50,613 bases of DNA, taken from assembly GCA_031266335.1 (NCBI GenBank), contig JAISBF010000088.1, positions 1-50,613 of the forward strand, read 5' to 3'. The translations under genes and the position numbers were made by a program. This DNA is from Verrucomicrobiales bacterium. Its GTDB lineage: Bacteria > Verrucomicrobiota > Verrucomicrobiia > Methylacidiphilales > JAAUTS01. Below, in pieces: positions 138 to 50,613 of this stretch. The notes beneath the pieces were generated by a model. The model was not told the origin of the DNA. It searched no databases and worked only from the letters and a program-made list of their open reading frames with translations. Position 1 is the stretch's first letter; each line of letters starts with the position of its first letter.

Positions 138-146
138 TGAAGCGAT

Positions 147-251
147 GATTTTGGACGAGTCCGTAATGATTTTGGACGAGTACAAAACGATTTTGGACAG
201 ACCGATTACGCCAACGAACAGGCCGGTAACGCCAACGGACAGGCCGGTTAC
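147..251 (+). repeat. Five tandem units with an exact 21-bp period (GATTTTGGACGAGTCCGTAAT type, drifting to GCCAACGRACAGGCCGGTWAC)
   Basis: Units read directly at 147-167, 168-188, 189-209, 210-230 and 231-251. The region is non-coding, downstream of the minus-strand gene ending at 439. Confidence 0.7.
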
Positions 252-317
252 GGCGATGAATGCCTCCGTCCCGTTGGGGTTAAACTCCCTGAGAGTGCCG
301 GAGTAGTCCAGCGTTAT

Positions 318-414
318 GGTTTGGAGGTTTGCAGTTGGAAATTGGCAGTTAATTGGCGTTTGGGATTTGGCGTTTGAAATTTTGTACTCGGCATTTGGAA
401 TTTTGTACTCGGTT
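318..414 (+). repeat. Degenerate TTGG-rich repeats ending in two 21-bp units (TTTGRAATTTTGTACTCGGYW)
   Basis: Units lie at 373-393 and 394-414. The core ATTTTGTACTCG is the reverse complement of CGAGTACAAAAC in unit 168-188, so this block is inverted relative to the 147-251 array. Confidence 0.55.
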
Positions 415-19200: not shown

Positions 19201-20096
19201 CGCTTGACCACTGGCTGTTCCGCCAGAGCCAGATGTGGCGCGCGGTGCCGCCGGGCATACAGTTGCAATACGAGGATTACTGGCCGGCGCAAATGTTCGG
19301 TCAATGGCTGATCAAGCAATTCGGCACCGAGGCCGAGGCGCGCGCGGCGCTGGCGCCGGATTATCCCACCGCCAGCGGCTGGACCAGCGGCTTGAACGCG
19401 GACTGGGCGTCGCTCGGCCTGCCGACCGGCAAAAATTTGTGGGCGGTGCATCGCAAGGAGCTCACCATCAGCGACGGCTGGTTTGACGACCTGCGCGGCG
19501 TTGAACTGATCTGGACTTGGGGTCGCCGCAACGTTATGGAGCTGTGGGTCAACGGCAGCGTCATTGTCAGCGGCGCGAACACGGATCACGAAAAATTATT
19601 CGCCGTGCTCAAGCCGGGCAACAATATCGTCACGCTGCTGGTGCGCGCCGAGGACGACGGCAACGGCGGGCGCATCAATGAATTTATGTTCGCGCGGGTG
19701 CCCGGCAAGCACGGCGAGGCGCTGACGGTGAACGACAACTGGACGGTGTATCCCGACGAAACCACGCCGCAGCCGGTGAGTTTTCCGGCCAAGGGCGAGT
19801 GGATGCTCGCGCGCAAGAAAATCACCGTGCCTGAGAAATATCGTGACTGCGAGGTGTGGCTGGAGGCGCGCGGCGCGACGATTGGCGCGGTCAACGGGCG
19901 CTCGCGCTACAACAGCAACAACTACGGCGCGCGCAACCGCCGCGCGGCACTGCTCATCAACGTCACGCCCGACATCAAGTTCGGCGCTGACAATGACGTG
20001 TGGCTCGGCGCCGGCAACTGGAACGACGGCATCCGCCCCGGCCCGATGGACTTGCAGGATGTGAAACTGTGGTTCATCCCGCGCGGGAAAAAATAA
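16248..20096 (+). CDS. Giant lipoprotein, family A (A2); paralog of A1
   Basis: The ATG at 16248 gives MKWKNIIWVALVVAGVGWLAGC (lipobox LAGC). The 1282-aa product shows high collinear identity to A1 along its whole length. Confidence 0.8.
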   Translation: MKWKNIIWVALVVAGVGWLAGCDKESETKNYNLRVYGPLTVTRNDHGARIAAADADKARIVWSKIFADFTTLPTVSEREVRAGRTALKALVFESGRALLPVLQDGASIVTVYSFDTPAALDEFLQSSSAQLAGAKYHDRREHPYFLDLWDRHAMSFWYSPNRTGGHAKPGMTDDGDFDFFRQHQLGVNAAGVNGPIAERARRYDLGYKFNRWMDVSSYVYDKYPQDTHVGDPDSTHWNDYYGDVPFAENRLERGQGADLQEFLRQYADDDHLMSVTDPHGETGPGAADYMGWRARDESSRRSFIAYLRDTRQLTVSALGERWYGDAQRFKSWDDVQFPRERDFYGWQDGASQDLSGEWKLRVMKRADGEQAKLFDPAVSDANWFPFAMPGTEAFAFRFWRETTDGAWLRFTFKADANLLRKAADGQPVYLTVCPFNYALYANPTSVWFNGQKLGDLTLGYGEEWGQFDVTKILTAGDNTLTVFAPNGHIKGPRFLTTKRAEEFPTPDKQLNARLYDLREWVADNTARSNARAIEIIRGADADRPVKMMAFYSMIDVMMPWLEQLGGYPHCTGEGAYFRPWFKRFGYLRGIQSSAEPSGPAGDLRGLRRIYFTLQMEGGNALDYFIHLHSVTADPEMKAWFERNAGYLQLMGRFDLKKPEVAIARSWRIERVFIPWPTMPADSGYQNDLGRGDMYQAHYSYVYTSERELADGLLKNYRVIIDDNFHTLNPADVDNLEKWVADGGTLVLNQRSGRNTYEEANSWPIEKLTGCVATVRPMGGKVTFEANPEILKAYAGKTFADTGNVTDWQQHTYYHDSISLAAKDGVTVSVIARYEDGAPAIVTRQLGKGRVIVLGSAFYRDSSDVDGYYVGSHAQAQFYQHLLGELGVQPVIVSEQDSLWSERFVSNNGSTELLVLGNAHGTEPLKSGSAVWELDFAPRRVFDPVTGATLPVKIEGRKVTVSVQDLLPYDLRYFAVERTDGTAVDALDHWLFRQSQMWRAVPPGIQLQYEDYWPAQMFGQWLIKQFGTEAEARAALAPDYPTASGWTSGLNADWASLGLPTGKNLWAVHRKELTISDGWFDDLRGVELIWTWGRRNVMELWVNGSVIVSGANTDHEKLFAVLKPGNNIVTLLVRAEDDGNGGRINEFMFARVPGKHGEALTVNDNWTVYPDETTPQPVSFPAKGEWMLARKKITVPEKYRDCEVWLEARGATIGAVNGRSRYNSNNYGARNRRAALLINVTPDIKFGADNDVWLGAGNWNDGIRPGPMDLQDVKLWFIPRGKK

Positions 20097-20135
20097 ACAA
20101 CTGACCTTGTAAAATTACGGCGTCAAGCTCCGGAC

Positions 20136-20342
20136 TTGACTCTGGCGGAACTCAAACGCCAGTTGATTAGACTGGAACGCTTGCCGCCATCGGTTAGGCA
20201 TTACGGTGGTTTGGCTATACACGAAGACGCTCTGTGTCCGGGAGACGTCATCATGGACAATCTTTCTGCGCATCACGGTACGCAAGTCGGCAAACGGATT
20301 CATGCTGCCACCTGGTTCCATTCCCGCGTTTACCATCCGTAA
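20136..20342 (+). pseudogene. IS630-family DDE transposase remnant (C-terminal fragment, frameshifted and truncated)
   Basis: PGDVIMDNLSAHHGTQV matches the IS630/Tc1 motif D-N-x-x-x-H around the catalytic region. The expected LxFLPxYSP continues in another frame (LVPFPRLPS), then homology stops. There is no N-terminal part. Confidence 0.6.
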
Positions 20343-20426
20343 TCCAAAAAAATTTTAAAAAGATGTTGCAATTTTCTCGTCATCCAACTAATATCCACAT
20401 TGGAAATTCAACCAAAGGAAAATGAT

Positions 20427-20675
20427 ATGAGTAAAATTATAGTAAACGCAGTCAGAGCCGGGTGCCTTCTTTTAATGACCTTAGCGGTAGTACATGCTTC
20501 TTGTTATGTAGCAGTAAACTGCAGTACAGGAGGAACGAATTGTTTTTCATCGCCCACAGCTGGCACTGCTCCAATTGAGGCAAATGGCCATAATCAAGGC
20601 AGTGAGTCCTGTGGAACAACGGAAGCAGGATCCCCTTGCGGAAGCCTCGCTGTAATTGGTACATGTAAATTGTAA
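20427..20675 (+). CDS. Small secreted Cys/Gly/Ser/Thr-rich peptide (82 aa)
   Basis: AAGGA lies 7 nt upstream of the ATG at 20427. The signal-like N-terminus is MSKIIVNAVRAGCLLLMTLAVVHA and the mature part has six Cys. A perfect 13-bp stem terminator lies 20 nt downstream. Low GC. Confidence 0.55.
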   Translation: MSKIIVNAVRAGCLLLMTLAVVHASCYVAVNCSTGGTNCFSSPTAGTAPIEANGHNQGSESCGTTEAGSPCGSLAVIGTCKL

Positions 20676-20694
20676 TTTTATCCAAAATATGAAT

Positions 20695-20727
20695 AAACAG
20701 AAGCATGGGCATCTCATGCTTCTGTTT
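20695..20727 (+). terminator. Rho-independent-type hairpin
   Basis: AAACAGAAGCATG-ggcatct-CATGCTTCTGTTT forms a perfect 13-bp stem with a 7-nt loop, followed by GTTT. Confidence 0.6.
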
Positions 20728-20988
20728 GTTTCATAAATATGCCCCCTCATTATAGTATGGAGGCGGAACATTTCTACTGCTGTATAGAGCAAGACTACTT
20801 ATTCTGCCCAATTCCACCCAAGGTGATAACTGATATAATAGAGTAGAGTTGTTGGCTGACAATTAAATCGGTTGTTAGGTTGCCATCCCCACAGTGACGA
20901 GAAAGTGATTAGTTTTACCAATTGTGGAATTAGAACTATAAGTATTACCGAATAATTAATGCAATAAAATAACCAAACAAGATTAATT

Positions 20989-21948
20989 ATGAAATGTAGA
21001 ATCATTGAATTAATAATAGCAATGGGATTGTTATCATCAAACATACTTTTGGCACAAAGACATAATTCTTTGACATCAGAATTAGATACTTTGAAAAAAA
21101 ATGCCCAAGCTTTACAAAGTTATTATTATAATGCGAAAGTGCATAAAATCGTAATTCCGGGACTTGAGAGCGAAATAAACGAAAATAATCCATTATGCAA
21201 ACAAACAATTGATATTACCGTTGGTGTTTTTAATAATAAACACTTGGTTGAAGTGAAGTGTCATGATGGTAATCGTAAATTATTTGATTCAATAATAAGC
21301 TGTTATGATGGGGAATTATGGTCTTGGCTTGACGGCCGCTTGCATGTTATGTTTTTTTCAAAAAAAAGACACAGACGACTTTATTCGCTGGCCGGAACCC
21401 ATCCGTTAGGTTTAATTTATGGTTTTATTAATTTTAAAAATGATGGTGGTAATATGGTCTGTACTTATCCACTGGATATAATGAATGATGTCGGATGGGA
21501 ACAATTGTCCAGGGAAGCAGCATTAATTGCACTTGATGGCAAACAATTTACTTTTTCTGTCACGGGCACCGATGATTATACCCAAAAACAATATTTTGAC
21601 GAAATAACGGTAGATAAGGAAACTTACCTTCCCATTATGTTAAAACGCTATAATTTTGAATCAAATATCAAGGGCGCATTGACATACCAACATGAGATAA
21701 AAGAGATTGGCAGACTCAAATTAGGTTCTCAGACTGTTTATTACCCAAAAACACTGGAAATTGCCCGTTATCATCCGCCCGCTGTTGCGGGACAGGAACG
21801 AGGTAATCTTTATTACACCATTTCAACCGTTGTTACCGACATCAAAAATATTAATAAAGACGACGACATGGACTTTTCCATAGACCCAACTTTGGCCAAG
21901 GCGATTGTGGATGTGGATAGGGATGTGTGGATCGATATACCAAAATAA
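20989..21948 (+). CDS. Hypothetical secreted/anchored protein (low-GC island)
   Basis: 319-aa ORF with hydrophobic N-terminus MKCRIIELIIAMGLLSSNILLA and AT-rich codon usage unlike the flanking genome. No family was recognised. Confidence 0.65.
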   Translation: MKCRIIELIIAMGLLSSNILLAQRHNSLTSELDTLKKNAQALQSYYYNAKVHKIVIPGLESEINENNPLCKQTIDITVGVFNNKHLVEVKCHDGNRKLFDSIISCYDGELWSWLDGRLHVMFFSKKRHRRLYSLAGTHPLGLIYGFINFKNDGGNMVCTYPLDIMNDVGWEQLSREAALIALDGKQFTFSVTGTDDYTQKQYFDEITVDKETYLPIMLKRYNFESNIKGALTYQHEIKEIGRLKLGSQTVYYPKTLEIARYHPPAVAGQERGNLYYTISTVVTDIKNINKDDDMDFSIDPTLAKAIVDVDRDVWIDIPK

Positions 21949-21952
21949 GATT

Positions 21953-22966
21953 ATGCGACTTTTATTTACCATATTAAGTCTCGTCATTTGTTTTTGTATT
22001 GCTGCCTGTAAGGAAAAGCGCCAAATTCATTCGATTAACATTAAGGCTGGAGGTCAATACCATTCGGCTGCCGGTGACATATTTCAGTTTGGAGAGATTA
22101 ATCGAATATTAATTTTAAAGAATAATGAAGATAATGAGATTACTTTCAATAAAATTGAAACGACCTGTGGTTGTAGTAATCTAGCATTGGAAAATGAGAC
22201 AATTTTACCGAATGCAACGACCGCGTTACACCTCACCTTAAAGGCGCAAAATAGGAAAGGTCCTTTTTACGTAATTGCCACATTGTTTTATAAAATAAAA
22301 AATGAAACGGAAGTTAAAAATTTTAGAATCCGTTTTGATGCAAATGCCGTTACGCCAGCGGATGTCGAACCAGATCGTATAGATCTTCCAGATTTGGATA
22401 TTGCTGGTATTCCCCAGGTTATTAAGGTGGATGTTCGGCGTAATAAGACGCCCATTCAATGGGATGATATTTTAATTTCAACAAAAAAGCTCCCCGCAGT
22501 CATCAGTAGGATAGATAATGATCATTACGAGATAAATATAAAGGTTGATCCCGGTAAGGTAAATATAGTTGGCTCTGTCAGCGATGAATTGGAAATTTTA
22601 TTAACCAGAGCGGATGAGGTAAAACCAATTGTTATTACGGTTCCAATACAAGGGAAAATTATATCTAAGCACTCAGTTAAGCCCGCAAGTATTTTTATGG
22701 GATCGGTAAAGGTTGGCGATATTAAAAAAGGGAGTGTAAATATTAAATTGGCTAATCAAACAAAACTTGTGAAAGCAGAAATTGAAGATATGGACAAGGC
22801 CAGTGTTGCCGTGAAAGGTGGATCTAATAATGAATATATCATTGAGTATGCATGTGTTATACCTGAATCTAAGACTGGGTATTTAAGGGGAAATTTGCAA
22901 CTTATGTTAAATGATAATGAAAAACAGTATTACTTGGTTATTCCAATAGTTGGTTACTTACAATAA
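21953..22966 (+). CDS. DUF1573-like lipoprotein (low-GC island)
   Basis: The ATG at 21953 gives MRLLFTILSLVICFCIAAC (lipobox). TTCGCSNL...LPNATTALHLTL matches the CGC-containing DUF1573 Ig-like repeat, and a second similar repeat follows. Confidence 0.7.
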   Translation: MRLLFTILSLVICFCIAACKEKRQIHSINIKAGGQYHSAAGDIFQFGEINRILILKNNEDNEITFNKIETTCGCSNLALENETILPNATTALHLTLKAQNRKGPFYVIATLFYKIKNETEVKNFRIRFDANAVTPADVEPDRIDLPDLDIAGIPQVIKVDVRRNKTPIQWDDILISTKKLPAVISRIDNDHYEINIKVDPGKVNIVGSVSDELEILLTRADEVKPIVITVPIQGKIISKHSVKPASIFMGSVKVGDIKKGSVNIKLANQTKLVKAEIEDMDKASVAVKGGSNNEYIIEYACVIPESKTGYLRGNLQLMLNDNEKQYYLVIPIVGYLQ

Positions 22967-22989
22967 TAATAATAAAAGGTAAAAAAGGT

Positions 22990-23088
22990 CTCATAAAAGA
23001 AATTAGTCTTTATTTTTGACAGATGGGCAGAATTGAAAGCAGCGAACGAAAAGAATTTGTCAAAAAATGCAGACTAACCCCTTTCTCA
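22990..23088 (+). repeat. Palindromic ~100-bp repeat, copy 1
   Basis: ...TAGTCTTTATTTTTGACAGATGGGCAGAATTGAAAGCAGCGAACGAAAAGAATTTGTCAAAAAATGCAGACTAACCCCTTT. The arms are inverted repeats around a conserved ~36-nt centre. Confidence 0.8.
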
Positions 23089-23215
23089 CTTTCTACAGTT
23101 GAAAAATAATCGGCAAGTAATCGTTAATCACGGGGCCTGAGATTAACGCCCCGCCGCCGGCTGGCAAGGCTTATTTGCATTGTCAGCGGCCGTGCCGCAC
23201 GCATAGGATTGGCCC

Positions 23216-24106
23216 ATGCCGCTGACGGTCACCTCCGAACTCAACCGGCGCGTCCGCGCTCTGGCGGAGCCGGATAATTATTGGCGGGGCCGGACGCCTG
23301 CCGAGCCGTTGCGTCCCGTGAACATCCTCGTGTTCCGCCGTCGCAGCGTGGCGGAGTTGCGCGCCGGCGCTGATTTTCCGCACCAACACCACCGCCACGT
23401 GCTCATCACCGCCCTGCGCGGCGCGGGCCGGGTCGGGGTGGATACGCGCGTCTGGCCGGTGCGCGAAGGGCAGAGTTTGCTGGTGCTGCCGTTCCAAACG
23501 CACTGGCACGAGCTTCCGGCGGCGGAAAAAATCCTGTGGCTGTTCGTCACCTTCGAGCACGGGCGGGACGCGCGGCTGGAGCGATTGCGCGACCGCGGGC
23601 AGGTCAGTCTCACCGTCAGCGAGCGGGATTTGCCGCGCGATTTTATCCGCGCGTGGTCAGCGTCAGCGGAGACACTCGGATTGCGCCTGTCGCTGTGGTT
23701 GCACGCGCTCACGCAAAAAATCAACCGCGCCGCGCTGCCCAACCTCGCTGTCAGTCACGCCAAAAAACCGGAGTTGGTAGCGGAAATCAACCGGCTGTTT
23801 TTTGCCGACCGCGAAAAAACGCTGCGGCTGGCGCATCTCGCCAAGCGACTGCGTGTCTCGGTCAGCCTGTTGCGCGCCGAATTTCACCGCGCGACCGGAA
23901 AATCAGTCGGCAAATATGTGCGCGAGTTGAAATTGCAATACGGCTGCGAATTGCTCCACGACATGGCGTGGCCAGTGGGCGAAGTCGCCACCCGCTGCGG
24001 CTACGACTCGGTGTTTTCCTTCAGCCGCGCGTTTCACCGGCGTTATCAGATGTCGCCGAGCCGTTACCGGCAAATGGTCGGCGCGCGCGCAACCGCGGGC
24101 CGCTGA
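23216..24106 (+). CDS. AraC-family transcriptional regulator (cupin sensor + HTH)
   Basis: The C-terminal AraC HTH signature is LAKRLRVSVSLLRAEFHRATGKSVGKYVRELKLQYGCELL...GYDSVFSFSRAFHRRYQMSPSRYR. Confidence 0.9.
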   Translation: MPLTVTSELNRRVRALAEPDNYWRGRTPAEPLRPVNILVFRRRSVAELRAGADFPHQHHRHVLITALRGAGRVGVDTRVWPVREGQSLLVLPFQTHWHELPAAEKILWLFVTFEHGRDARLERLRDRGQVSLTVSERDLPRDFIRAWSASAETLGLRLSLWLHALTQKINRAALPNLAVSHAKKPELVAEINRLFFADREKTLRLAHLAKRLRVSVSLLRAEFHRATGKSVGKYVRELKLQYGCELLHDMAWPVGEVATRCGYDSVFSFSRAFHRRYQMSPSRYRQMVGARATAGR

Positions 24107-44654: not shown

Positions 44655-44767
44655 ATCGGCGACGAGCGTAGGCGCGGCCCGGCGGGCGGACAATGTGGCA
44701 AATTGCCGCAGCCGGCCCCGGTGTTTGCGGTTTCTTTGCCGGGCCGCTTTGGGTAAGCTGGCGCCGC

Positions 44768-46054
44768 ATGATGGCCGCTGACATTGACAATACGAAGGAC
44801 CAGCAACCGCGACTGGGCTTGCTGTGGCTAACGCGGTTGCGCTGGGTGGCGCTGGCGGGGCAACTGCTGGTCTGCGCGCTGGCGTGGCGAGTGTTGCACA
44901 TCGCCCTGCCGTTGGCGGTGCTGACGGCGGGCGTGGGCTGGATGCTGGCCAGTAATCTGGCGCTGGAGTGGTGCCGCCGCCGACGGGTACGCCTGCCGGA
45001 GGCGCGGGTGTGCGCGGCGCTGATTTTTCTGGATACGCTGATCATGACCGCGATGTTTTACTGGGCGGGCGGGGCGCGCAATCCGTTCACGGCGCTGTAT
45101 CTGATGCACATCACCCTGGCGGCGATTTTGCTGCCGCCGTGGCAAGCCTGGCTGGCCCTGGCCTGGTGCGGGCTTTGCTACGGGCTGTTGTTTTTGTCGC
45201 CGCACGCGCTGCAAAGTTCGGCGGGCGGGACGTGCTGTGTCAGCTTTGATTTTCATTTGCAGGGGATGTGGCTGGGGCTGTTGCTGACCGGCGGCTTTAT
45301 CGCGCTGTTTGTCAGCCGGCTGAGCGCGGACTCGGCCCGGCGCGAACGGGAACTGGCGCAGGCGCGGCAGTTGTCGGAACGGAGCAAACACTTCGCCTCG
45401 CTGGCGACACTGGCGGCGGGGGTGGCGCATGAATTGGCGACGCCGCTGGGCACCATCGCGGTGGTCAGTTCCGATTTCGAGCGGCAGATTTGCCGGGTGT
45501 GCCAGGATGGCGACTATCGGGCGGACGCGCGCCTGATTCGCGCGGAGGTGGAGCGCTGCCGGGAGATTTTGGAAAAACTGCGCGACCGGACGACCCAGGG
45601 CGTGGGCGAGCCGTTCGTGCCGGTGCCGCTGGCGGAGTTGCCGGCGCTGCTGGCGCCGTATTTGCAGGCGGCGCATTTGGCGCGCGTGGATTGCCGGGTG
45701 GAGGCCGGGCTGGGTGCGCTGCTGGCGCCGCGGACCGCGTTGTTGCAATCGCTGGCGGTGCTGGTGAAAAACGCCTGCGAGGCGGACCCCGGCGGCGGCC
45801 CGGTGCGCTTGCGGGTGACCGCGGCAGCGGGCGGGCGGCTGCGTTTCACGGTGAGCGACCGGGGCGTCGGCATGGACGCGGAAACGGTGGAACGCGCCTG
45901 CGAGCCGTTTTTCACCACCAAGCCGGCGGGGCAGGGGATGGGCCTGGGCTTGTTCCTGGTGCGGACTCTGGTGGCACGGGTGCATGGCGACCTGAGTATC
46001 GACTCGGCACCGGGGCGAGGCACGACGGTTAACCTGGAGATGCCGCTGACATGA
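44768..46054 (+). CDS. regB: Membrane sensor histidine kinase, RegB/PrrB-like
   Basis: Multi-TM N-terminus, H-box HELATPLGTI, and G-boxes GQGMGLGLFLV and GRGTTV. It overlaps the regA-like gene by 4 nt (ATGA). The family-level call is tentative. Confidence 0.8.
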   Translation: MMAADIDNTKDQQPRLGLLWLTRLRWVALAGQLLVCALAWRVLHIALPLAVLTAGVGWMLASNLALEWCRRRRVRLPEARVCAALIFLDTLIMTAMFYWAGGARNPFTALYLMHITLAAILLPPWQAWLALAWCGLCYGLLFLSPHALQSSAGGTCCVSFDFHLQGMWLGLLLTGGFIALFVSRLSADSARRERELAQARQLSERSKHFASLATLAAGVAHELATPLGTIAVVSSDFERQICRVCQDGDYRADARLIRAEVERCREILEKLRDRTTQGVGEPFVPVPLAELPALLAPYLQAAHLARVDCRVEAGLGALLAPRTALLQSLAVLVKNACEADPGGGPVRLRVTAAAGGRLRFTVSDRGVGMDAETVERACEPFFTTKPAGQGMGLGLFLVRTLVARVHGDLSIDSAPGRGTTVNLEMPLT

Positions 46055-46578
46055 ACACGGCGGCGCAGCGGTTATTGCTGGCGGATGACGACGCCGTCTT
46101 CCGCGAGCGGCTGGCCGTGGCGCTGGGCCGGCGCGGTTACGAGGTGCGGACGGCGGCCGACGGCGCGGCGGCGCTGCGGGTGGCGGCGGAGTTCGCGCCG
46201 CGGTTCGCGGTGGTGGACTTGAAGATGGCGAACGAGAACGGCCTGACGTTGATTCGCGAGTTGAAGGAACGGCACGCGGCGCTGCGGATCATCATGCTGA
46301 CCGGTTACGGCAGCATCGCCACGGCGCTGGAGGCGGTGCGGCTGGGCGCGGCGGATTATTTGACCAAGCCGGCGGACGTGGGGCAAATCGAGGACGCGTT
46401 GCGCGGGCGTCACGCCGGGGCCGGCTTGCGCGTGCCGAGTCTCGACCGCGTAGAGTGGGAGCATTTGCAGCGGGTGCTGGCGGATTGCGGAAATAATATC
46501 AGCCGCGCGGCGCGGGTGCTGGGCATCGACCGCCGTTCCTTGCAGCGCAAACTGGCGAAATATCCGCCGCGGCGATAG
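46051..46578 (+). CDS. regA: Response regulator, RegA/PrrA/ActR family (REC + Fis-type HTH)
   Basis: LLLADDD...VVDLKM (phospho-acceptor Asp) and LTKP. The C-terminal VEWEHLQRVLADCGNNISRAARVLGIDRRSLQRKLAK is characteristic of RegA/ActR. Confidence 0.88.
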   Translation: MNTAAQRLLLADDDAVFRERLAVALGRRGYEVRTAADGAAALRVAAEFAPRFAVVDLKMANENGLTLIRELKERHAALRIIMLTGYGSIATALEAVRLGAADYLTKPADVGQIEDALRGRHAGAGLRVPSLDRVEWEHLQRVLADCGNNISRAARVLGIDRRSLQRKLAKYPPRR

Positions 46579-46748
46579 AGAAAAACGCGCCTCATCAGCG
46601 TCAGGCGATGTTTTAACCACGGATTAAAAAAATAAAAAAAAACCTTGCGCAAGCCCGCCCGATTCCATATCGTCCCATCGTCAAATCGTCCAACCGAGTT
46701 GTCAAAACCCGCTGAAGATGAAAAAGATCAGTCATAAACCAAGTGAAT

Positions 46749-46780
46749 CGCGCTCACGCGCTCACGCGCTCACGCGCTCA
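46749..46780 (+). repeat. Octanucleotide microsatellite (CGCGCTCA)x4
   Basis: Four perfect tandem copies read directly. Intergenic. Confidence 0.85.
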
Positions 46781-46896
46781 TTATGACTACTGCCCCGACT
46801 GCTTAATTTGCCAGCCAGTTTTTACCCACTTCATTCCCCATCTGGCAGACAACCAGCCGCCAGCGTCAGCGACGCGGGATGGAGACTTTCTCACGA

Positions 46897-47148
46897 GAAA
46901 AGACCGCCTTTACACATGTAAAAACCGTTTTATCACCTGTAAACCCCATTTTGACACGTGCAAAAATCGTTTTGTCACGTGTAAAGACCGTTTTGTCATG
47001 TGCAAAAATGATTTTGTCATGTGTAAAAATCATTCTGACACGTGCAAAAACGGGTTTGACACGTGTAAAACTCATTTTGTCACGCGTAAAAATCGTCCGG
47101 TCACGTGTCAAAAGCACCTTGTCACCGATCAAAATCCCCACGTTTTCA
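46897..47148 (+). repeat. Array of about 11-12 tandem units with an exact 21-bp period, consensus GYAAAAAYCGTTTTGTCACGT
   Basis: Units lie at 46918, 46939, 46960, 46981, 47002, 47023, 47044, 47065, 47086 and 47107 (each exactly 21 nt), plus degenerate end units. The array is AT-rich and ends 45 nt upstream of the ATG at 47194. Confidence 0.85.
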
Positions 47149-47193
47149 GTCTTAACATCCTGAATATCAACAACTAACCAAGGAAAATCACAT

Positions 47194-47856
47194 ATGTCCC
47201 ACCGAAACATCCCCGCCGAACCCCACGCCCTGTTGGGCTACAGCCGGCTCATCGAAACCACCGCCCAGGCCAACCAGAAAACTGACCAATGGGATCTCGA
47301 CGCCCGGCGCATCCTCGCCCTCAAAGCCGTCAACGACCACTTGGAACTCGCCCTGCAAGCCAACGACGCCAAGGAAACCAGAAACCACTTCACCGTCGTC
47401 GCCAAGGACGAGGCCGTCAGCGCCTTGTTGGTCATCCTGCGCGGTTTCATCAACTACCTCATCGGCAAGACCGACAAAATCACCGACGAAATCCTGCAAC
47501 AACTCGGCATCCCTCCGCGCCATCACGTCAAGCACGAGCCGCTGCCCCCGCCGACCGACGCCCCAGTCGTCGTCATCCACACCGGCCACAACCACGACGC
47601 CGACTTCTACTTCTTCAACAACCAGGCCGGCCACCCCACTAAGTACTTGGCCGCCGCGAACTGCCACGCCGTATTGCTTAAATACCGGTTACAAGGCACC
47701 GACGACTGGCAACAACAGACCATCACCAGAAAACATCTAACCAAACACTTCGGCCTCGAAGCGCAAGGCAAAGCCCTGGAAGCCGTCGCCGCCTGGCTCA
47801 GCCCCACCCTCCAACCCGGCCCCTGGAGCGACCCCGAAACCGCCATCGTCACCTGA
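47194..47856 (+). CDS. Hypothetical protein (220 aa)
   Basis: AAGGA RBS 9 nt upstream. Consistent C-ending codon usage shared with the downstream autotransporter. No family recognised. Confidence 0.6.
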   Translation: MSHRNIPAEPHALLGYSRLIETTAQANQKTDQWDLDARRILALKAVNDHLELALQANDAKETRNHFTVVAKDEAVSALLVILRGFINYLIGKTDKITDEILQQLGIPPRHHVKHEPLPPPTDAPVVVIHTGHNHDADFYFFNNQAGHPTKYLAAANCHAVLLKYRLQGTDDWQQQTITRKHLTKHFGLEAQGKALEAVAAWLSPTLQPGPWSDPETAIVT

Positions 47857-47892
47857 ACCCCATTCAAACCAACCACCAACCCACCATCTACT

Positions 47893-50613
47893 ATGAAAAA
47901 AACAACCCTGCTATTAACCCTCCTCAGCGCCTCCGCGTTGAATGTCTTCGCAGACCCCAAAGTCGTCACCAGCGGCACCGAGGCCGAAGCGGACAAAACC
48001 TATACGGGCGACTCCACCTACGCCGCCCTGCAAGTCAGCGGCAGCGAGACTTGGTACAGCGGCACCCGCCTCACCCTCAGCGGCATCACCGTTAGCAACA
48101 CTGGTCGCTATGGCGCCTACGTTTATAACCAGGGCCGATTGGACTTGCACGACATCACCAGCGTCGGCGGAGCGGCGCAAAATGGTTACGCCGCGTATGC
48201 AACCGGTTCCTCCATCATGACCATCACCGGCGGCACCTTCACCTCTGACTGGCTTAGCTATGGCGTCTATTACACCGGCTCCTCAATTGGCCGAGTGGCA
48301 AACGTCCACATCAATACCACGGACCTTGCTAGCTACGGGCTCGTCGCCGCCTTGCACAGTCAGGTGGACGGTCAAAACCTCACTATCGAGACCTTCGGCA
48401 CTTCCGGTTACGGCGTCTTCTACGCCGTCGCCACCGGTGCCATCAGCGGCTTGACCGTGGTCACGCATAACATGAGTGGGTTTGGCATCGCCGTGGAAGG
48501 CAACGGCACTTTGTTGGAAGTGGAGAATTTCACCGTGCTGACCGAGGGCAATAGAGCGAAAGGCGCCGGGGTCGGTTCGTCAACTGGCGCGACATTCGGC
48601 ATCGGTGACGGCACCCTAATCCTGCGTAGCGGCACCATCGTCACTACCGGTTCCAATAGCGCCGGGGCAATGACTGCGGGCGAGGGCAGCAACGCGCTGT
48701 TCATGCGCGACATGACCATCGAAACCCACGGACAGGATGCGGCGGGAATTGTTACTAGCCAAGGCCCCAACGGCCACGACAAAACCAACACCATCGTCAT
48801 GGACGGCGGCTCTGTCTATGCGGAAAACGGCCCGGCAGTAAGGATTGGTATCATGGGCACGACCACCAATACCGACCCCGATGTCGTGGCCAGTCAGGGC
48901 GGCACCTATAATATTACCCTCACCGGCAGCGCGCAACTCAGCGGCACCTCCGCCTTTGAGATTGTCAACCGAATCACCGGCACCCTCGCCGACGGCGAGC
49001 CGTACACCGTGGACACTATGACCATCGCCAACGTCACCGTGGAAGATGGCGTCACCCTCACCGGCGACACCAACATCAAAGGCAGCAGCACCGCCACCCT
49101 CAACCTCGACGACAGCACTCTCACCGGCAACATCAATGCCATCGAGGACACCAACCTCACCCTCAGCGGCAGCCACGGCGCGACCATCACCGGCACCGTC
49201 AGCGGTAACGACAATGCCATCATCGACCTAACCGTCAGCGGCACCGGCAGCACCATCCTCGGCGACATCACCCAGAGCGGCAGCAGCGCCGTCACCGTCA
49301 TCATTGACAACAGCGCCACCGGCCAAGGCGGCTACCACGGCGGCAACCTCATCACCGGCGAAGACAGCGCGTGGACTTTCGACAAAAACAGCCACGGCAA
49401 CTACGGCAAAAACGACGGAGTATGGAACATCGGCGACTACGAAGTCATCTTCGATAACATGACCCACACCGGCACCCTCAACCTCAACGTCAACACCGAC
49501 ACCGGCGCCGGCGGCTCCATCCACGTAACCGGCACCGCTGACGGCGAAGGCACCGTCCACATCGACACCACCGGCGACGGCAAACTCAACCCCAACGACG
49601 TACTCCCCGGCATTGTCAGCGGTGAAGGCACCGAACACTGGCAATGGGATCCCATCGACTGGGGCATCGACACCATCATCAAAGACGGCGACCACTTCGT
49701 AAAATCCGGCGTCAGCCCGGCGGGCGCGGTCTTGAACAGCAGCGTGGCGATCCAACAAGCCATGTGGTTCGCGCAGCAAAACAGTTTGCTCAAGCGCATG
49801 GGCGAGTTGCGCTATGGAGCGCGGGCGTCTCGCCCGCTGGCGGACAAGGATGTCCGCGTTCCATATAACCTCATCGAAAACCTCTGGCTCAGAAGCTACG
49901 GCCAACAGCTAAACATCGGCAGCCAAGTAGCGGGCCGCGCCTACGAACAACTCATCTACGGCGTCGATCTCGGCACGGATCACAAGTTCACCATCAGCGC
50001 TGACAGTGACCTATACTTGGGCGTGTACGCCGGCTACGGCCGCAGTGACATAGACTACCGCACCCCCGGCACTGACGGTGAGATCAACAGTTACTACGGC
50101 GGCCTCTACGCCACCTGGCTCCACAGCAGCGGCTTCTATATCGACGCCACCTTCAAGGCTGCCAGTGTCAACAACGACCTGAAAGCTCCGTATGGCAACG
50201 CCCAACTCAAAGCCAGCTACAGCGACGTGAACATCGGCGGCAGCCTCGAACTCGGCAAGAAGTTCACCTTCACCGATGACTGGTTCATAGAACCTCAATT
50301 CCAAGTCAACTACCTGCACATCCTCGCCGAAGATTACACCGCCGGCCCGATGACCATCAGCACCCAAGACCTCGACGCCCTGCAACTCCGCATCGGCTCT
50401 TTGTTTGGCCGCACCCTCAAGCTCGCCAACGGCGGCGCGTTACAACCCTACGTGAAGATCAGCGGCGTCGAAACCATCAGCAGCGGCGGCACCATCAGAA
50501 ACGGCTACCAACACACCCGCGCCAACACCGACGGTGCCCGCGCCGAACTCGGCGCCGGCCTCATCTGGCAACTCGACACCAACAACCAACTCCACCTCGA
50601 CTACGAAGCCTCC
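47893..50613 (+). CDS. Autotransporter (signal peptide, beta-helical passenger, beta-barrel translocator); 3'-partial, runs off the window
   Basis: It is not in the ORF track because there is no stop in the window. Hand translation shows it open for 907 codons from the ATG at 47893. The N-terminus is MKKTTLLLTLLSASALNVFA and the passenger has Gly/Thr-rich repeats. The junction is LLKRMGELR...NLWLRSYGQQ, followed by barrel strands (YLGVYAGYGRSD, YYGGLYATW, FIEPQFQVNY). Confidence 0.85.
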   Translation, partial: MKKTTLLLTLLSASALNVFADPKVVTSGTEAEADKTYTGDSTYAALQVSGSETWYSGTRLTLSGITVSNTGRYGAYVYNQGRLDLHDITSVGGAAQNGYAAYATGSSIMTITGGTFTSDWLSYGVYYTGSSIGRVANVHINTTDLASYGLVAALHSQVDGQNLTIETFGTSGYGVFYAVATGAISGLTVVTHNMSGFGIAVEGNGTLLEVENFTVLTEGNRAKGAGVGSSTGATFGIGDGTLILRSGTIVTTGSNSAGAMTAGEGSNALFMRDMTIETHGQDAAGIVTSQGPNGHDKTNTIVMDGGSVYAENGPAVRIGIMGTTTNTDPDVVASQGGTYNITLTGSAQLSGTSAFEIVNRITGTLADGEPYTVDTMTIANVTVEDGVTLTGDTNIKGSSTATLNLDDSTLTGNINAIEDTNLTLSGSHGATITGTVSGNDNAIIDLTVSGTGSTILGDITQSGSSAVTVIIDNSATGQGGYHGGNLITGEDSAWTFDKNSHGNYGKNDGVWNIGDYEVIFDNMTHTGTLNLNVNTDTGAGGSIHVTGTADGEGTVHIDTTGDGKLNPNDVLPGIVSGEGTEHWQWDPIDWGIDTIIKDGDHFVKSGVSPAGAVLNSSVAIQQAMWFAQQNSLLKRMGELRYGARASRPLADKDVRVPYNLIENLWLRSYGQQLNIGSQVAGRAYEQLIYGVDLGTDHKFTISADSDLYLGVYAGYGRSDIDYRTPGTDGEINSYYGGLYATWLHSSGFYIDATFKAASVNNDLKAPYGNAQLKASYSDVNIGGSLELGKKFTFTDDWFIEPQFQVNYLHILAEDYTAGPMTISTQDLDALQLRIGSLFGRTLKLANGGALQPYVKISGVETISSGGTIRNGYQHTRANTDGARAELGAGLIWQLDTNNQLHLDYEAS
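49813..49865. repeat. REP-like element embedded in frame inside the autotransporter gene
   Basis: TATGGAGCGCGGGCGTCTCGCCCGCTGGCGGACAAGGATGTCCGCGTTCCATA has the same architecture as 12162-12222. It is translated as YGARASRPLADKDVRVPY. Confidence 0.75.

What the first reader, a model, noticed from the sequence alone, without database searches (positions are those of the whole stretch)
46897..47148. Eleven to twelve direct repeats with an exact 21-bp (two helical turns) period upstream of the hypothetical-gene/autotransporter pair: an iteron-like protein-binding array
Ten consecutive units are each exactly 21 nt (46918 to 47127) and there are degenerate end units. The consensus is GYAAAAAYCGTTTTGTCACGT, and many units contain a CACGTG or ACGTG half-palindrome. 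Strict two-turn phasing puts every site on one face of the helix. That arrangement is seen in plasmid iterons, ParR/centromere arrays and cooperative regulator or nucleoid-protein arrays. The array ends 45 nt before the ATG at 47194 and lies directly downstream of the RegB/RegA-like system. The region is AT-rich and open in several frames only because the unit lacks stop codons.
Basis: partly seen in the sequence, partly recalled or inferred. Interest (0 to 1): 0.65.

Follow-up and report, generated by a model that had tools for sequence, protein, structure and literature searches.

The report
Tandem 21-nt palindrome array in leader
Eleven 21-base palindromic repeats sit between a promoter-like site and a small unknown gene that precedes a surface-protein gene. 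Arrays with the same period but other sequences precede relatives of that gene in termite-gut bacteria named from three phyla, so this looks like a conserved, undescribed control element and not a plasmid-style iteron.

Summary
There are 11 in-register 21-nt units at 46897-47127 with degenerate ends. Lag-21 identity is 0.70, against at most 0.39 in shuffles.

The iteron reading is only partly supported. The RegB/RegA neighbours are incidental: a 95%-identical copy of the module sits in an unrelated genomic context. No Rep or Par gene, plasmid or phage relative was found.

Every relative of the downstream 220-aa gene with readable upstream DNA carries a 21-nt-period array there. The unit sequence differs from locus to locus. 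Counts are 9-14 units in 14 Verrucomicrobial arrays and 6.7 in a Prevotellaceae-like contig.

Each unit is a near-perfect 21-nt palindrome. The arms covary between arrays and the centre is the least conserved part, which fits tandem hairpins or dyad sites.

In Verrucomicrobiales the array lies inside a multi-copy conserved leader that carries an 8-nt microsatellite. The reading frame set by that leader stays stop-free through all eight independent arrays (null 3e-5). It ends a few nucleotides before the gene's ATG. No frame shows protein-coding constraint.

Best reading (about 0.4): a transcribed hairpin-array gate inside an upstream reading frame whose entry the microsatellite switches. A DNA operator array remains a live rival (about 0.25).

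The parts
46623..46673 (+). A-rich tract followed by the promoter-like TTGCGC (46645-46650), a 17-nt spacer and TATCGT (46668-46673)
   Evidence: Conserved in the leader copies of MAG JAISDC01. It falls below the threshold of the consensus scanner, so this is an inference. No promoter-like site was called between array and ATG here or in L001, L004, L008 or L009.
46718..46786 (+). Short upstream ORF: conserved ATG in GAAGATGA, reading through the microsatellite to TGA (22 codons)
   Evidence: The ATG and its context are conserved in 14 leader copies. In all of them this ORF stops just after the microsatellite, at the conserved TGA or TAA.
46749..46780 (+). Perfect microsatellite (CGCGCTCA)x4
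   Evidence: Paralogues carry 3-11 copies and the 95%-identical module L012 carries 7. The other unit variants are also 7 or 8 nt long.
46783..46806 (+). 7-codon mini-ORF whose ATG overlaps the TGA of the short ORF (ATGA) and which ends at the conserved TAA
   Evidence: Read directly from the sequence. TATGAC and CT(T)AATT are conserved in the leader alignment.
46820..46838 (+). Invariant leader box TTTTACCCACTTCATTCCC
   Evidence: Unique in the window. Found at 11 loci in one Verrucomicrobiales MAG. It is invariant at all three codon positions, so it is conserved as nucleic acid.
46722..47177 (+). Long stop-free frame: microsatellite, leader, array, then TAA at 47175-47177, 16 nt before the gene's ATG
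   Evidence: This is the same frame as the conserved F-x-x-F-I-P-H leader frame in all 14 leader copies. It is out of frame with the ATG at 46718 when there are 4 microsatellite units, and would be in frame with 5.
46897..47127 (.). Core array: 11 units of 21 nt. Rotated consensus GTGTAAAAATCGTTTTGTCAC is an 8-nt arm, a variable centre and the complementary arm.
46876..46896 (.). Degenerate 5' unit, 10 of 21 matches
47128..47148 (.). Degenerate 3' unit, 9 of 21 matches
47149..47193 (+). C/A-rich tail predicted to be unpaired, containing AACTAAC (stop of the long frame) and AAGGAAAA at 47180-47187
   Evidence: Similar CA-rich tails with (A/C)(A/T)TAAC precede the ATG in most homologous loci.
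47194..47856 (+). 220-aa protein of an uncharacterised family: N-terminal long helices plus a C-terminal FN3-like beta sandwich
   Evidence: Differences from L012 fall 8/3/29 on codon positions 1/2/3, so it is a real gene. Model pLDDT is 84.5. The best Foldseek matches are FN3 and cytokine-receptor domains. No Pfam, PHROG, NCBIfam or PADLOC match. The family has 1336 clusters at E<=1e-3.
47893..50613 (+). Autotransporter gene, which runs off the window
   Evidence: PF03797 beta-domain, E 8e-42.

Best explanation
The array is a cis-acting element of the transcribed 5' leader of the operon (220-aa gene plus autotransporter).

Anatomy. It is a chain of about eleven 21-nt hairpin-forming palindromes: an 8-nt arm, a 3-5-nt variable centre and the complementary arm, with no linkers. 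It lies inside a long upstream reading frame that ends 16 nt before the gene's ATG. In this lineage the upstream (CGCGCTCA)n microsatellite decides whether ribosomes that start at the conserved ATG (46718) enter that frame. Two of the three frames stop at once, at a conserved TGA or TAA. The third runs through the array.

Proposed working. When ribosomes traverse the array they melt it and arrive next to the gene's start, so the gene is expressed. When they stop after the microsatellite, the untranslated array folds, and the leader is terminated, cleaved or left untranslated, so the gene is off.

Shown:
- the repeat anatomy and the covariation of the arms;
- constraint on the nucleotide sequence;
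- the kept-open frame;
- the leader and microsatellite architecture, and microsatellite length change between near-identical copies;
- the absence of protein-coding constraint.

Inferred: transcription through the array, translation of the frame, and how the folded array silences the gene.
For: Position:
- The only promoter-like sites lie upstream of the arrays. There is a conserved A-tract plus TTGCGC-17-TATCGT in the leader copies. L001 and L004 have 10/12 consensus matches and L008 and L009 have 9/12. None lies between array and ATG.

Hairpin or dyad units:
- Each unit has dyad centres 10.5 bp apart in 14 of 14 arrays.
- Consensus units are 21-nt palindromes whose centre is the least conserved part.
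- Across 14 arrays, 97 of 126 symmetric positions are complementary. When the 3' arm is taken from another array the figure is 40.9 +/- 6.0, with a maximum of 66 in 20,000 permutations. Three to four pair types occur per position. Related arrays differ by compensatory double changes.

Constraint:
- The array differs from L012 at 4.8% of positions, against 13% at third codon positions of the adjacent gene.

Kept-open frame:
- The leader frame is stop-free in 8 of 8 independent arrays. Per-array null probabilities are 0.17-0.55 and their product is 3e-5.
- The open frame ends between -4 and 24 nt from the ATG in 17 of 19 modules.
- Leader copies without an array keep the same frame open. Two of them carry one long hairpin instead.
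- In L004 an ATG 9 nt after the -10 hexamer opens a frame of about 117 codons through the array that ends TAA-G-ATG.

Switch:
- Microsatellite units are always 7 or 8 nt. Conserved stops close two frames on each side.
- Two 95%-identical modules carry 4 and 7 copies, while the number of array units is unchanged.

Not a protein:
- Unit variation by codon position is 213/232/228, and the synonymous-to-nonsynonymous ratio is about 0.27 in every frame.
- Differences from L012 in the long frame fall 11/7/8.

No sequence-specific partner next door:
- The array sequence does not track the neighbouring protein.
Against: - No RNA data exist for this organism. Promoters are only consensus matches, and the one in this window is below the scanner's threshold.
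- All 15 assembled microsatellite states put the conserved ATG out of the long frame, where one third would be expected in frame.
- Some loci (L009, L008) have no ordinary start codon for the open frame.
- The sense-strand hairpins of this particular array are weak (z = -3.6). In 13 of 14 Verrucomicrobial arrays the antisense strand folds better, with A:C mismatches outnumbering G:T on the sense strand 88 to 31.
- The model explains neither the count of about 11 units nor why arrays occur only in front of the small helical+FN3-type genes, across phyla.
Confidence: 0.4

Rival explanations
1. DNA operator array, closest to the first reader's idea. Each 21-bp palindrome is a site for a dimeric or filament-forming DNA-binding protein. 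The sites are spaced two helical turns apart, so all lie on one face. Cooperative occupancy downstream of the promoter silences or switches the operon. The binder could be the 220-aa product, reading shape rather than sequence, or an unlinked factor.
For: - The period is exactly 21 bp in every array.
- Conserved arms with a variable centre resemble dimer operators.
- The array is found with this gene family wherever upstream DNA could be read, including the Prevotellaceae-like contig L112.
- No strand asymmetry holds across phyla.
- This window's array is predicted to be strongly curved, about 42 degrees per unit, and its RNA hairpins are weak.
- The unit count falls in a narrow range.
Against: - The neighbouring protein has no recognisable DNA-binding fold or family.
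- Array sequence is uncoupled from that protein. Proteins that are 34% identical have units that are 16/21 identical. A 91%-identical N-terminal half and a roughly 93%-identical C-terminal half go with different arms.
- The RegA-like regulator is not syntenic.
- At least 7 different array sequences occur in one genome, with no matching family of regulators in view.
- Curvature is not shared by the other 12 arrays.
- This reading does not explain the kept-open frame.
Confidence: 0.25
2. RNA platform for the neighbouring protein. The transcribed hairpin array is a multivalent binding site for the helical+FN3 protein, recognised by shape. This would give autoregulation or assembly of a ribonucleoprotein, as with TRAP on its 11 repeats or CsrA on CsrB.
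For: - The array and the gene form a pair that is conserved across deep divergence.
- Arms covary while their sequence is free, which suits recognition of structure.
- There are about 11 repeated units.
- In L109 and L112 the sense RNA folds clearly better than the antisense.
Against: - FN3-like and helical-bundle folds are not known RNA binders, and no RNA-binding family matches.
- Loops are the least conserved part, unlike CsrB or TRAP sites.
- In Verrucomicrobia the sense strand folds worse than the antisense.
- Arrays also precede proteins with no significant similarity to the family.
Confidence: 0.12
3. The array encodes a functional heptad-repeat polypeptide, either the 144-aa + frame or the 114-aa - frame that gene callers pick.
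For: - 21 nt is 7 codons.
- Frames are open on both strands. JGI gene calls cover the arrays in L001, L002, L004, L005, L008 and L109.
- The open frames show recurring heptads of the form x-x-x-F-hydrophobic.
Against: - There is no third-position excess or synonymous excess in any frame on either strand.
- Differences from L012 fall 11/7/8 in the long frame, against 8/3/29 in the real gene.
- Heptad sequences are unrelated between homologous arrays.
- Gene callers choose different strands at different loci.
- The window's + frame has no conserved start codon, and its - ORF overlaps the start of the 220-aa gene.
Confidence: 0.04
4. Neutral minisatellite that hitch-hikes in a recombination-prone leader and has no function.
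For: Higher-order periods of 42, 63 and 84 show unequal crossing-over and concerted evolution.
Against: - The array is present upstream of family members from 34% to 100% identity, and in a Prevotellaceae-like contig as well as the Verrucomicrobial ones.
- The period is invariant and the unit count is narrow.
- Palindromy is kept through sequence turnover.
- Divergence is lower than at synonymous sites.
- The unit number is unchanged where the neighbouring microsatellite changed.
Confidence: 0.04

Closest known systems
Plasmid iterons and phased tandem operators (for example ARG boxes at 21-bp centre-to-centre spacing; from general knowledge)
   Same: Repeats about 21 bp long, phased at two helical turns, lying next to the gene they are associated with. 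The units are palindromic like dimer operators.
   Different: The setting is chromosomal, with no Rep, Par or regulator gene. There are about 11 abutting units where known systems have 2-7. The sequence does not covary with the adjacent protein. The array lies downstream of the promoter-like site and inside a kept-open reading frame.
REP/BIME arrays of enterobacteria (from general knowledge)
   Same: Tandem palindromic units in transcribed extragenic DNA that can form hairpins in mRNA.
   Different: REP sequences are one genome-wide family, usually sit 3' of genes, and have units of about 35-40 bp with linkers. Here each locus has its own 21-nt unit, the unit occurs nowhere else in the window, and the array is always 5' of one type of gene.
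Phase-variable simple-sequence repeats in the leaders or promoters of adhesin and autotransporter genes (for example AGAT repeats before uspA2, 7-bp repeats before hmw1A/2A, TAAA before nadA; from general knowledge)
   Same: A repeat tract upstream of a surface-protein operon. The adjacent (CGCGCTCA)n behaves like such a tract, with 3-11 copies in paralogues and 4 against 7 copies in near-identical modules.
   Different: The 21-nt array itself is imperfect, palindromic and stable in copy number. It is not the hypermutable part.
Upstream ORFs and leader peptides with translational coupling or polarity (for example tnaC-tnaA; from general knowledge)
   Same: An upstream frame ends next to the main start codon, so expression would depend on whether ribosomes cover the leader.
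   Different: The frame is 95-190 codons long, has no conserved peptide, is filled with tandem hairpins, and entry into it is set by a frame-shifting microsatellite.
Multi-hairpin protein-binding RNAs (CsrB/RsmZ) and the 11 TRAP-binding repeats of the trp leader (from general knowledge)
   Same: About 11 to 20 regularly spaced repeats in one RNA. CsrB-type repeats have a comparable spacing of about 20 nt.
   Different: Those have a conserved single-stranded motif (GGA or GAG). Here the loops are the least conserved part and the stems are the conserved, covarying part.

Membership tests
Plasmid iterons (Rep-binding origin repeats) | Direct repeats of about 17-22 bp, phased near two helical turns | tested here: met
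   Exact 21-nt period over 11 units with no indels.
Plasmid iterons (Rep-binding origin repeats) | Adjacent gene for a winged-helix Rep initiator on a plasmid or other replicon | tested here: not met
   The neighbouring protein is helical plus FN3-like with no family match. The window carries chromosomal carbohydrate-enzyme genes. tblastn found no plasmid hit.
Plasmid iterons (Rep-binding origin repeats) | Repeat sequence matched to its cognate protein, so the two covary | tested here: not met
   Proteins that are 34% identical have units that are 16/21 identical. A 91%-identical N-half goes with units that are 10/21 identical.
Plasmid iterons (Rep-binding origin repeats) | Neighbouring AT-rich unwinding element and DnaA boxes | not tested
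   No dedicated search was made. The flanks consist of a conserved leader and a CA-rich tail.
ParR/parC-type centromere arrays | Repeat array directly upstream of a partition operon (NTPase plus adaptor) | tested here: not met
   The downstream genes are the 220-aa protein and an autotransporter. Other loci have PEP-CTERM, TPR or RiPP genes downstream.
Target array of the adjacent RegA/ActR-type response regulator | Conserved linkage of regulator and target site | tested here: not met
   L012 has 94-95% identity over array and gene but unrelated flanks. All other homologous loci have different upstream genes.
Phase-variable simple-sequence contingency repeat | Perfect short units whose copy number differs between close relatives | tested here: not met
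   The array units are 62-95% like their consensus, and the unit number is the same in the window and in L012. The adjacent 8-nt tract does meet the feature.
REP/BIME elements | The same palindromic unit dispersed at many loci in the genome | tested here: not met
   The unit pattern with up to 3 mismatches occurs only inside the array in this 50-kb window. An exact-match count found it in only 1 of the 108 loci then fetched. At least 7 different units occur in one MAG.
Upstream ORF with translational coupling | Stop-free frame that ends at or next to the main start codon | tested here: met
   The frame 46722-47177 ends 16 nt before the ATG. In 17 of 19 modules the frame ends within -4 to 24 nt. 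The null probability for 8 arrays is 3e-5.
Upstream ORF with translational coupling | In-frame start codon and evidence of translation | tested here: inconclusive
   The conserved ATG is out of frame in all 15 assembled states and would be in frame with one more microsatellite unit. L004 has an in-frame ATG. No ribosome or RNA data exist.
CsrB/TRAP-type repeat RNAs | Conserved single-stranded motif in each repeat | tested here: not met
   The centre of each unit is its least conserved part. Nothing in Rfam exceeds noise.
Protein-coding heptad repeat | Codon-position or synonymous bias in substitutions | tested here: not met

The most novel reading that the evidence does not exclude
The arrays and the helical+FN3 proteins form a dedicated two-part system of a kind not yet described. 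A self-complementary tandem-hairpin (or cruciform) array would be read by shape by the product of the gene it precedes, or would self-associate as RNA. This would give an all-or-none switch for operons that make surface or secreted products: autotransporters and PEP-CTERM proteins here, and a radical-SAM peptide cluster in a Prevotellaceae-like genome. The system would have spread across phyla within termite-gut communities.
Probability: 0.3. Interest if true: 0.85.

Novelty: new variant of a known kind. Interest (0 to 1): 0.66.

Why it matters
If the reading holds, a family of at least 1300 sequence clusters of unannotated proteins gains a recognisable genomic signature: a 21-nt palindromic array in the leader.

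It would also define a new layout for gene switching. A frame-shifting microsatellite would decide whether ribosomes run through a long chain of hairpins to reach the real gene. That would be a new way to make surface-protein and peptide-product operons phase-variable in gut symbionts that cannot yet be cultured.

There is a practical point too. Gene callers currently annotate false 'hypothetical proteins' on either strand of these arrays, and assemblies break at them.

Even if the mechanism proposed here is wrong, the comparative pattern still needs an explanation: fixed period, narrow copy number, covarying arms, and sequence turnover that is uncoupled from the neighbouring protein.

Tried and rejected
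- **RegA/RegB link.** Rejected by lack of synteny.
- **Plasmid, phage or defence context.** Nothing in the window's Pfam annotation, PHROGs, PADLOC, IMG/VR (102, 103), or PLSDB and phage tblastn.
- **Known RNA family.** Rfam gave only sub-threshold microRNA-like hairpin noise.
- **Intrinsic DNA curvature as the shared property.** The other 12 arrays are no more curved than column-permuted controls.
- **The 220-aa protein as sequence-specific reader.** Rejected because array and protein are uncoupled.
- **Coding repeat.** Rejected.
- **G:U-versus-A:C mismatch test for the functional RNA strand.** It gave opposite answers in Verrucomicrobia and in the two low-GC contigs L109 and L112, so it is uninformative.
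- **Other sites for the unit in the window.** None found.
- **Metagenome-wide scan for the leader box.** It returned only two chance hits.
- **A wide family alignment** was too diverse to back-translate for a locus search.
- **RNA-seq runs.** None are available. The Logan contigs break at the microsatellite, so length heterogeneity could not be read.
- **Homology of the 250-aa and L084-type proteins to the family.** Not significant.
Full report
**1.

Read in register from 46897, the sequence gives eleven consecutive 21-nt units (46897-47127). They match the consensus GTAAAAATCGTTTTGTCACGT at 13-20 of 21 positions. One degenerate unit lies on each side, with 10 and 9 matches. Tandem Repeats Finder reports period 21 without indels, plus higher-order periods of 42 and 63. 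Identity at lag 21 is 0.70. It peaks only at lags 21, 42 and 63, and the best lag in 2000 shuffles reached 0.39.

Two + frames and one - frame are open across the array. The array is 41% G+C in a window that is mostly 62-69% G+C, apart from a low-G+C stretch around 20-34 kb.

**2. Surroundings.**

Upstream on the + strand lie a histidine kinase (44693-46054) and a response regulator with a Fis-type HTH (46051-46578). Downstream lie a 220-aa ORF (47194-47856) with no family match and an autotransporter that starts at 47893 and runs off the window. The rest of the window holds ordinary chromosomal genes for glycoside hydrolases, esterases and an AraC regulator. The sequence is found in termite-gut metagenomes. 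Relatives of the 220-aa protein carry names from Verrucomicrobiales MAGs.

**3. The array belongs to the downstream gene, not to the two-component system.**

I fetched the contigs that encode nine relatives of the 220-aa protein, at 34-73% identity. Every contig with readable upstream DNA carries a 21-nt-period array in front of the gene (L001, L002, L004, L005, L007, L008, L009), and each has a different unit sequence. Three contigs simply begin or break at the array. The genes upstream of these arrays are unrelated to each other: lipase, thioesterase, MutS and glycosyltransferase.

The closest relative of the whole module is L012, from the MAG 'Verrucomicrobiales bacterium Gx485_bin111'. It is 94-95% identical over array and gene, but its flanks are unrelated, with purM and other genes upstream. 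The RegB/RegA adjacency is therefore incidental.

**4. A multi-copy leader with a microsatellite.**

Logan contig depth over 46605-46850 is about 870-2000, and far higher over the microsatellite, against about 50 for the flanks. The leader box TTTTRCCCRYTTCATTCCC occurs at 11 loci in that one MAG. The copies share the following parts, in order:

- an A-rich tract and TTGCGC-17-TATCGT;
- the box AACCCGCTGAAGATGA;
- a perfect (CGCGCTCA)n tract, with n from 3 to 11 (variants of 7 or 8 nt at other loci);
- TATGAC...CTAATT...TTTTACCCGTTTCATTCCCCAT;
- either a locus-specific 21-nt array or no array;
- a C/A-rich tail and the ATG.

Arrays are present where the first gene encodes a small protein without a signal peptide. 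That protein belongs to the 220-aa family, to a 250-aa family, or to a third type. Arrays are absent where the leader runs straight into an autotransporter. This is confirmed for L051 and inferred from the N-termini for L064 and L088.

**5. Anatomy of the units.**

In all 14 arrays analysed, each 21-nt unit has two dyad centres 10.5 bp apart. Given the periodicity, this is equivalent to saying that each unit is a palindrome. After rotation, the consensus units show 5-10 of 10 symmetric pairs, and most show 7-10. The 3-5 central positions are the least conserved and the arms are the most conserved. They are palindromic as an automatic consequence.

Across 14 arrays, 97 of 126 symmetric positions are Watson-Crick complementary. 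When the 3' arm is taken from another array the figure is 40.9 +/- 6.0, with a maximum of 66 in 20,000 permutations. Three or four different pair types occur at each position. Related arrays are 10-17/21 identical in consensus and differ by compensatory double changes. For example, the window's GTG...CAC becomes AGG...CCT in L007. Dyad symmetry is therefore maintained through sequence turnover.

Each of the 14 arrays has 9-14 units, and the gap to the ATG is 36-103 nt.

**6. The array is constrained as nucleic acid, not as protein.**

Against L012 the array differs at 4.8% of positions. Third codon positions of the adjacent gene differ at 13%. The gene's differences fall 8/3/29 on codon positions 1/2/3, as expected of a real gene. 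In the 144-aa frame the differences fall 11/7/8.

Over 12 independent arrays, unit-to-unit variation shows no codon periodicity in any frame on either strand (213/232/228 in the leader frame). The synonymous-to-nonsynonymous ratio is about 0.27 in every frame. The conserved leader likewise varies equally at all three codon positions (41/52/54), and its core box is invariant at all positions. The translated heptads are unrelated between homologous arrays.

**7. One frame is nevertheless kept open.**

In all 14 leader copies, the frame that reads the conserved box as F-x-x-F-I-P-H stays open from the microsatellite, through whatever follows, to a stop close to the ATG. In 17 of 19 modules that stop lies between -4 and 24 nt from the downstream ATG. 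In the window it lies 16 nt away (TAA at 47175-47177). In L064 and L088 it forms an ATGA overlap, and in L004 it reads TAA-G-ATG.

I tested this with a null that permutes the 21 columns of each array. The chance that the leader frame is stop-free is 0.17-0.55 per array. The product over the eight independent arrays is 3e-5. The other + frames are open in 6 of 16 cases.

Upstream of the microsatellite only the frame of a conserved ATG (46718 in the window) is open. Downstream, two frames are closed at once by a conserved TGA and TAA, and only the third frame is the long one. The TGA overlaps the ATG of a conserved 7-codon mini-ORF. With four units the window's ATG frame stops at 46786. With five units it would read through the array.

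In all 15 assemblies the ATG is out of the long frame. This is either a weakness of the model or a sign that OFF is the usual state. L004 lacks the microsatellite. There, an ATG 9 nt after a 10/12 promoter match opens the long frame directly.

**8. The neighbouring protein.**

The AlphaFold model has pLDDT 84.5 and shows three long N-terminal helices and a C-terminal beta sandwich. The best Foldseek matches are FN3 and cytokine-receptor domains in the PDB, and FN3 domains of phage tail proteins in BFVD. No match appears in Pfam, PHROGs, NCBIfam, PADLOC or PDB sequence searches.

The family is large. It has 1336 clusters at 50% identity with E<=1e-3. The members that carry names come from termite-gut MAGs of Verrucomicrobiales, Prevotellaceae, Tannerella and Tannerellaceae, and Treponema.

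I looked up two distant members, and both carry arrays:

- L109/L110: at least 11 units of GTGACGAGCGCTTTGTCAGAG.
- L112, a Prevotellaceae-like contig: 6.7 units of a 42-nt higher-order repeat built on CTTCTT-N9-AAGAAG. It ends 47 nt before the gene and is followed by TIGR04149 peptide precursors and a TIGR04148 radical-SAM maturase.

The pairing of array and gene is therefore old or mobile.

The array sequence does not track the protein. P0009 and P0010 are 34% identical, yet their units are 16/21 identical. P0003 is a chimera, 91% identical to the window's protein in the N-terminal half and about 93% identical to P0008 in the C-terminal half, yet its array arms differ from both. This argues against the protein being a sequence-specific reader of the array.

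**9. Tests that did not discriminate.**

- RNA folding of the window's array gives z = -3.6 for the sense strand and -4.7 for the antisense.
- In 13 of 14 Verrucomicrobial arrays the antisense strand folds better. The sense strand has C>G in 14 of 14, and A:C mismatches outnumber G:T by 88 to 31.
- In L109 and L112 the skew and the folding preference are reversed. The strand test is therefore uninformative.
The other 12 arrays show nothing unusual. Curvature is not the shared property.
- Leader copies without an array have a single long hairpin in two cases (z = -4.4 and -2.7) and nothing significant in the other two.

**10. Interpretation.**

The shared features are these:

- a position between the only promoter-like site and the gene;
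- tandem 21-nt palindromes with covarying arms and free centres;
- a narrow range of unit numbers;
- nucleotide-level constraint without coding constraint;
- a reading frame kept open through the array to the gene's start.

I take these to mean a transcribed chain of hairpins that ribosomes can traverse. In this lineage, entry into that frame is set by a frame-shifting microsatellite. How the folded array silences the gene is inference. It could act by polarity or termination on an untranslated C-rich leader, by nuclease cleavage of the folded array, or by failing to deliver ribosomes to the start codon. I give this reading about 0.4.

A double-stranded-DNA operator array at two-turn spacing remains possible, at about 0.25. 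It would explain the strict pairing with the gene family better. However, it lacks a candidate reader and does not explain the open frame. An RNA platform for the neighbouring protein gets about 0.12. A coding repeat and a neutral minisatellite are each unlikely.

**11. Novelty.**

The adjacent microsatellite is a familiar kind of phase-variation tract. Upstream ORFs and leader hairpins are also familiar. I know of no description of what is new here: a conserved chain of about eleven abutting 21-nt palindromes, sitting inside a kept-open frame, attached to one unannotated protein family whose named members come from three phyla. Two literature searches found nothing relevant.

Noticed in passing
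window 46749-46780: Perfect (CGCGCTCA)x4 microsatellite inside a short ORF that starts at a conserved ATG (46718). Paralogues have 3-11 copies and the 95%-identical module L012 has 7. Other loci use 7- or 8-nt units (CGCAGCT, TTCGCTCC, GGCGCTCA, CTGCGCTC). Conserved stops close two of three frames on each side, which looks like a three-state translational phase switch.
   Followed up: partly
window 46605-46875: The leader is a multi-copy element. Logan contig depth is 870-2000 against about 50 locally. At least 11 copies occur in one Verrucomicrobiales MAG, placed in front of autotransporters and small proteins.
   Followed up: yes
window 145-412 (reads on the - strand): A second stretch in 21-nt register, with lag-21 identity 0.52. 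It is made of three short sub-arrays with different units, one of which contains CAAAATCGTTTTG as in the main array. It follows a TTGACA at 415-420 and is followed by a GC-rich inverted repeat at about 60-145. The gene it would precede lies off the window.
   Followed up: partly
window 47194-47856 and homologues P0002-P0234: The 220-aa protein belongs to a large unannotated family, with 1336 clusters at 50% identity. The only named sources are termite-gut MAGs of Verrucomicrobiales, Prevotellaceae, Tannerella(ceae) and Treponema. The predicted fold is a helical N-domain plus an FN3-like C-domain.
   Followed up: partly
L112 2313-5666: In a Prevotellaceae-like contig the array and the family gene sit at the head of a radical-SAM peptide cluster: two TIGR04149 precursors with GG leaders and a TIGR04148 maturase. 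A TPR/LuxR-type regulator lies upstream.
   Followed up: partly
L012 versus window 46600-47860; P0003 (L007): The modules are mosaic. L012 shares leader, array and gene at 94-95% identity but has unrelated flanks on both sides. P0003 joins an N-half like the window's protein to a C-half like P0008. This points to frequent recombination among paralogous modules.
   Followed up: partly
L001 3589-3942(-), L002 3559-3915(-), L004 3578-3868(+), L005 1660-2055(-), L008 568-858(-), L109 3-248(+): Public gene calls annotate 'hypothetical proteins' of 81-131 aa over the arrays, on different strands at different loci. By the substitution tests these are probably false genes. Several contigs also end inside the arrays.
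   Followed up: yes
window 20001-24000: Low-GC island, 0.40-0.48 against about 0.64 elsewhere. It contains a DUF1573 protein and an unassigned 319-aa ORF, and may be acquired DNA.
   Followed up: no
L006 3684-3817: A 45-bp unit repeated three times at 98% identity, downstream of a homologous module. Its nature is unknown.
   Followed up: no
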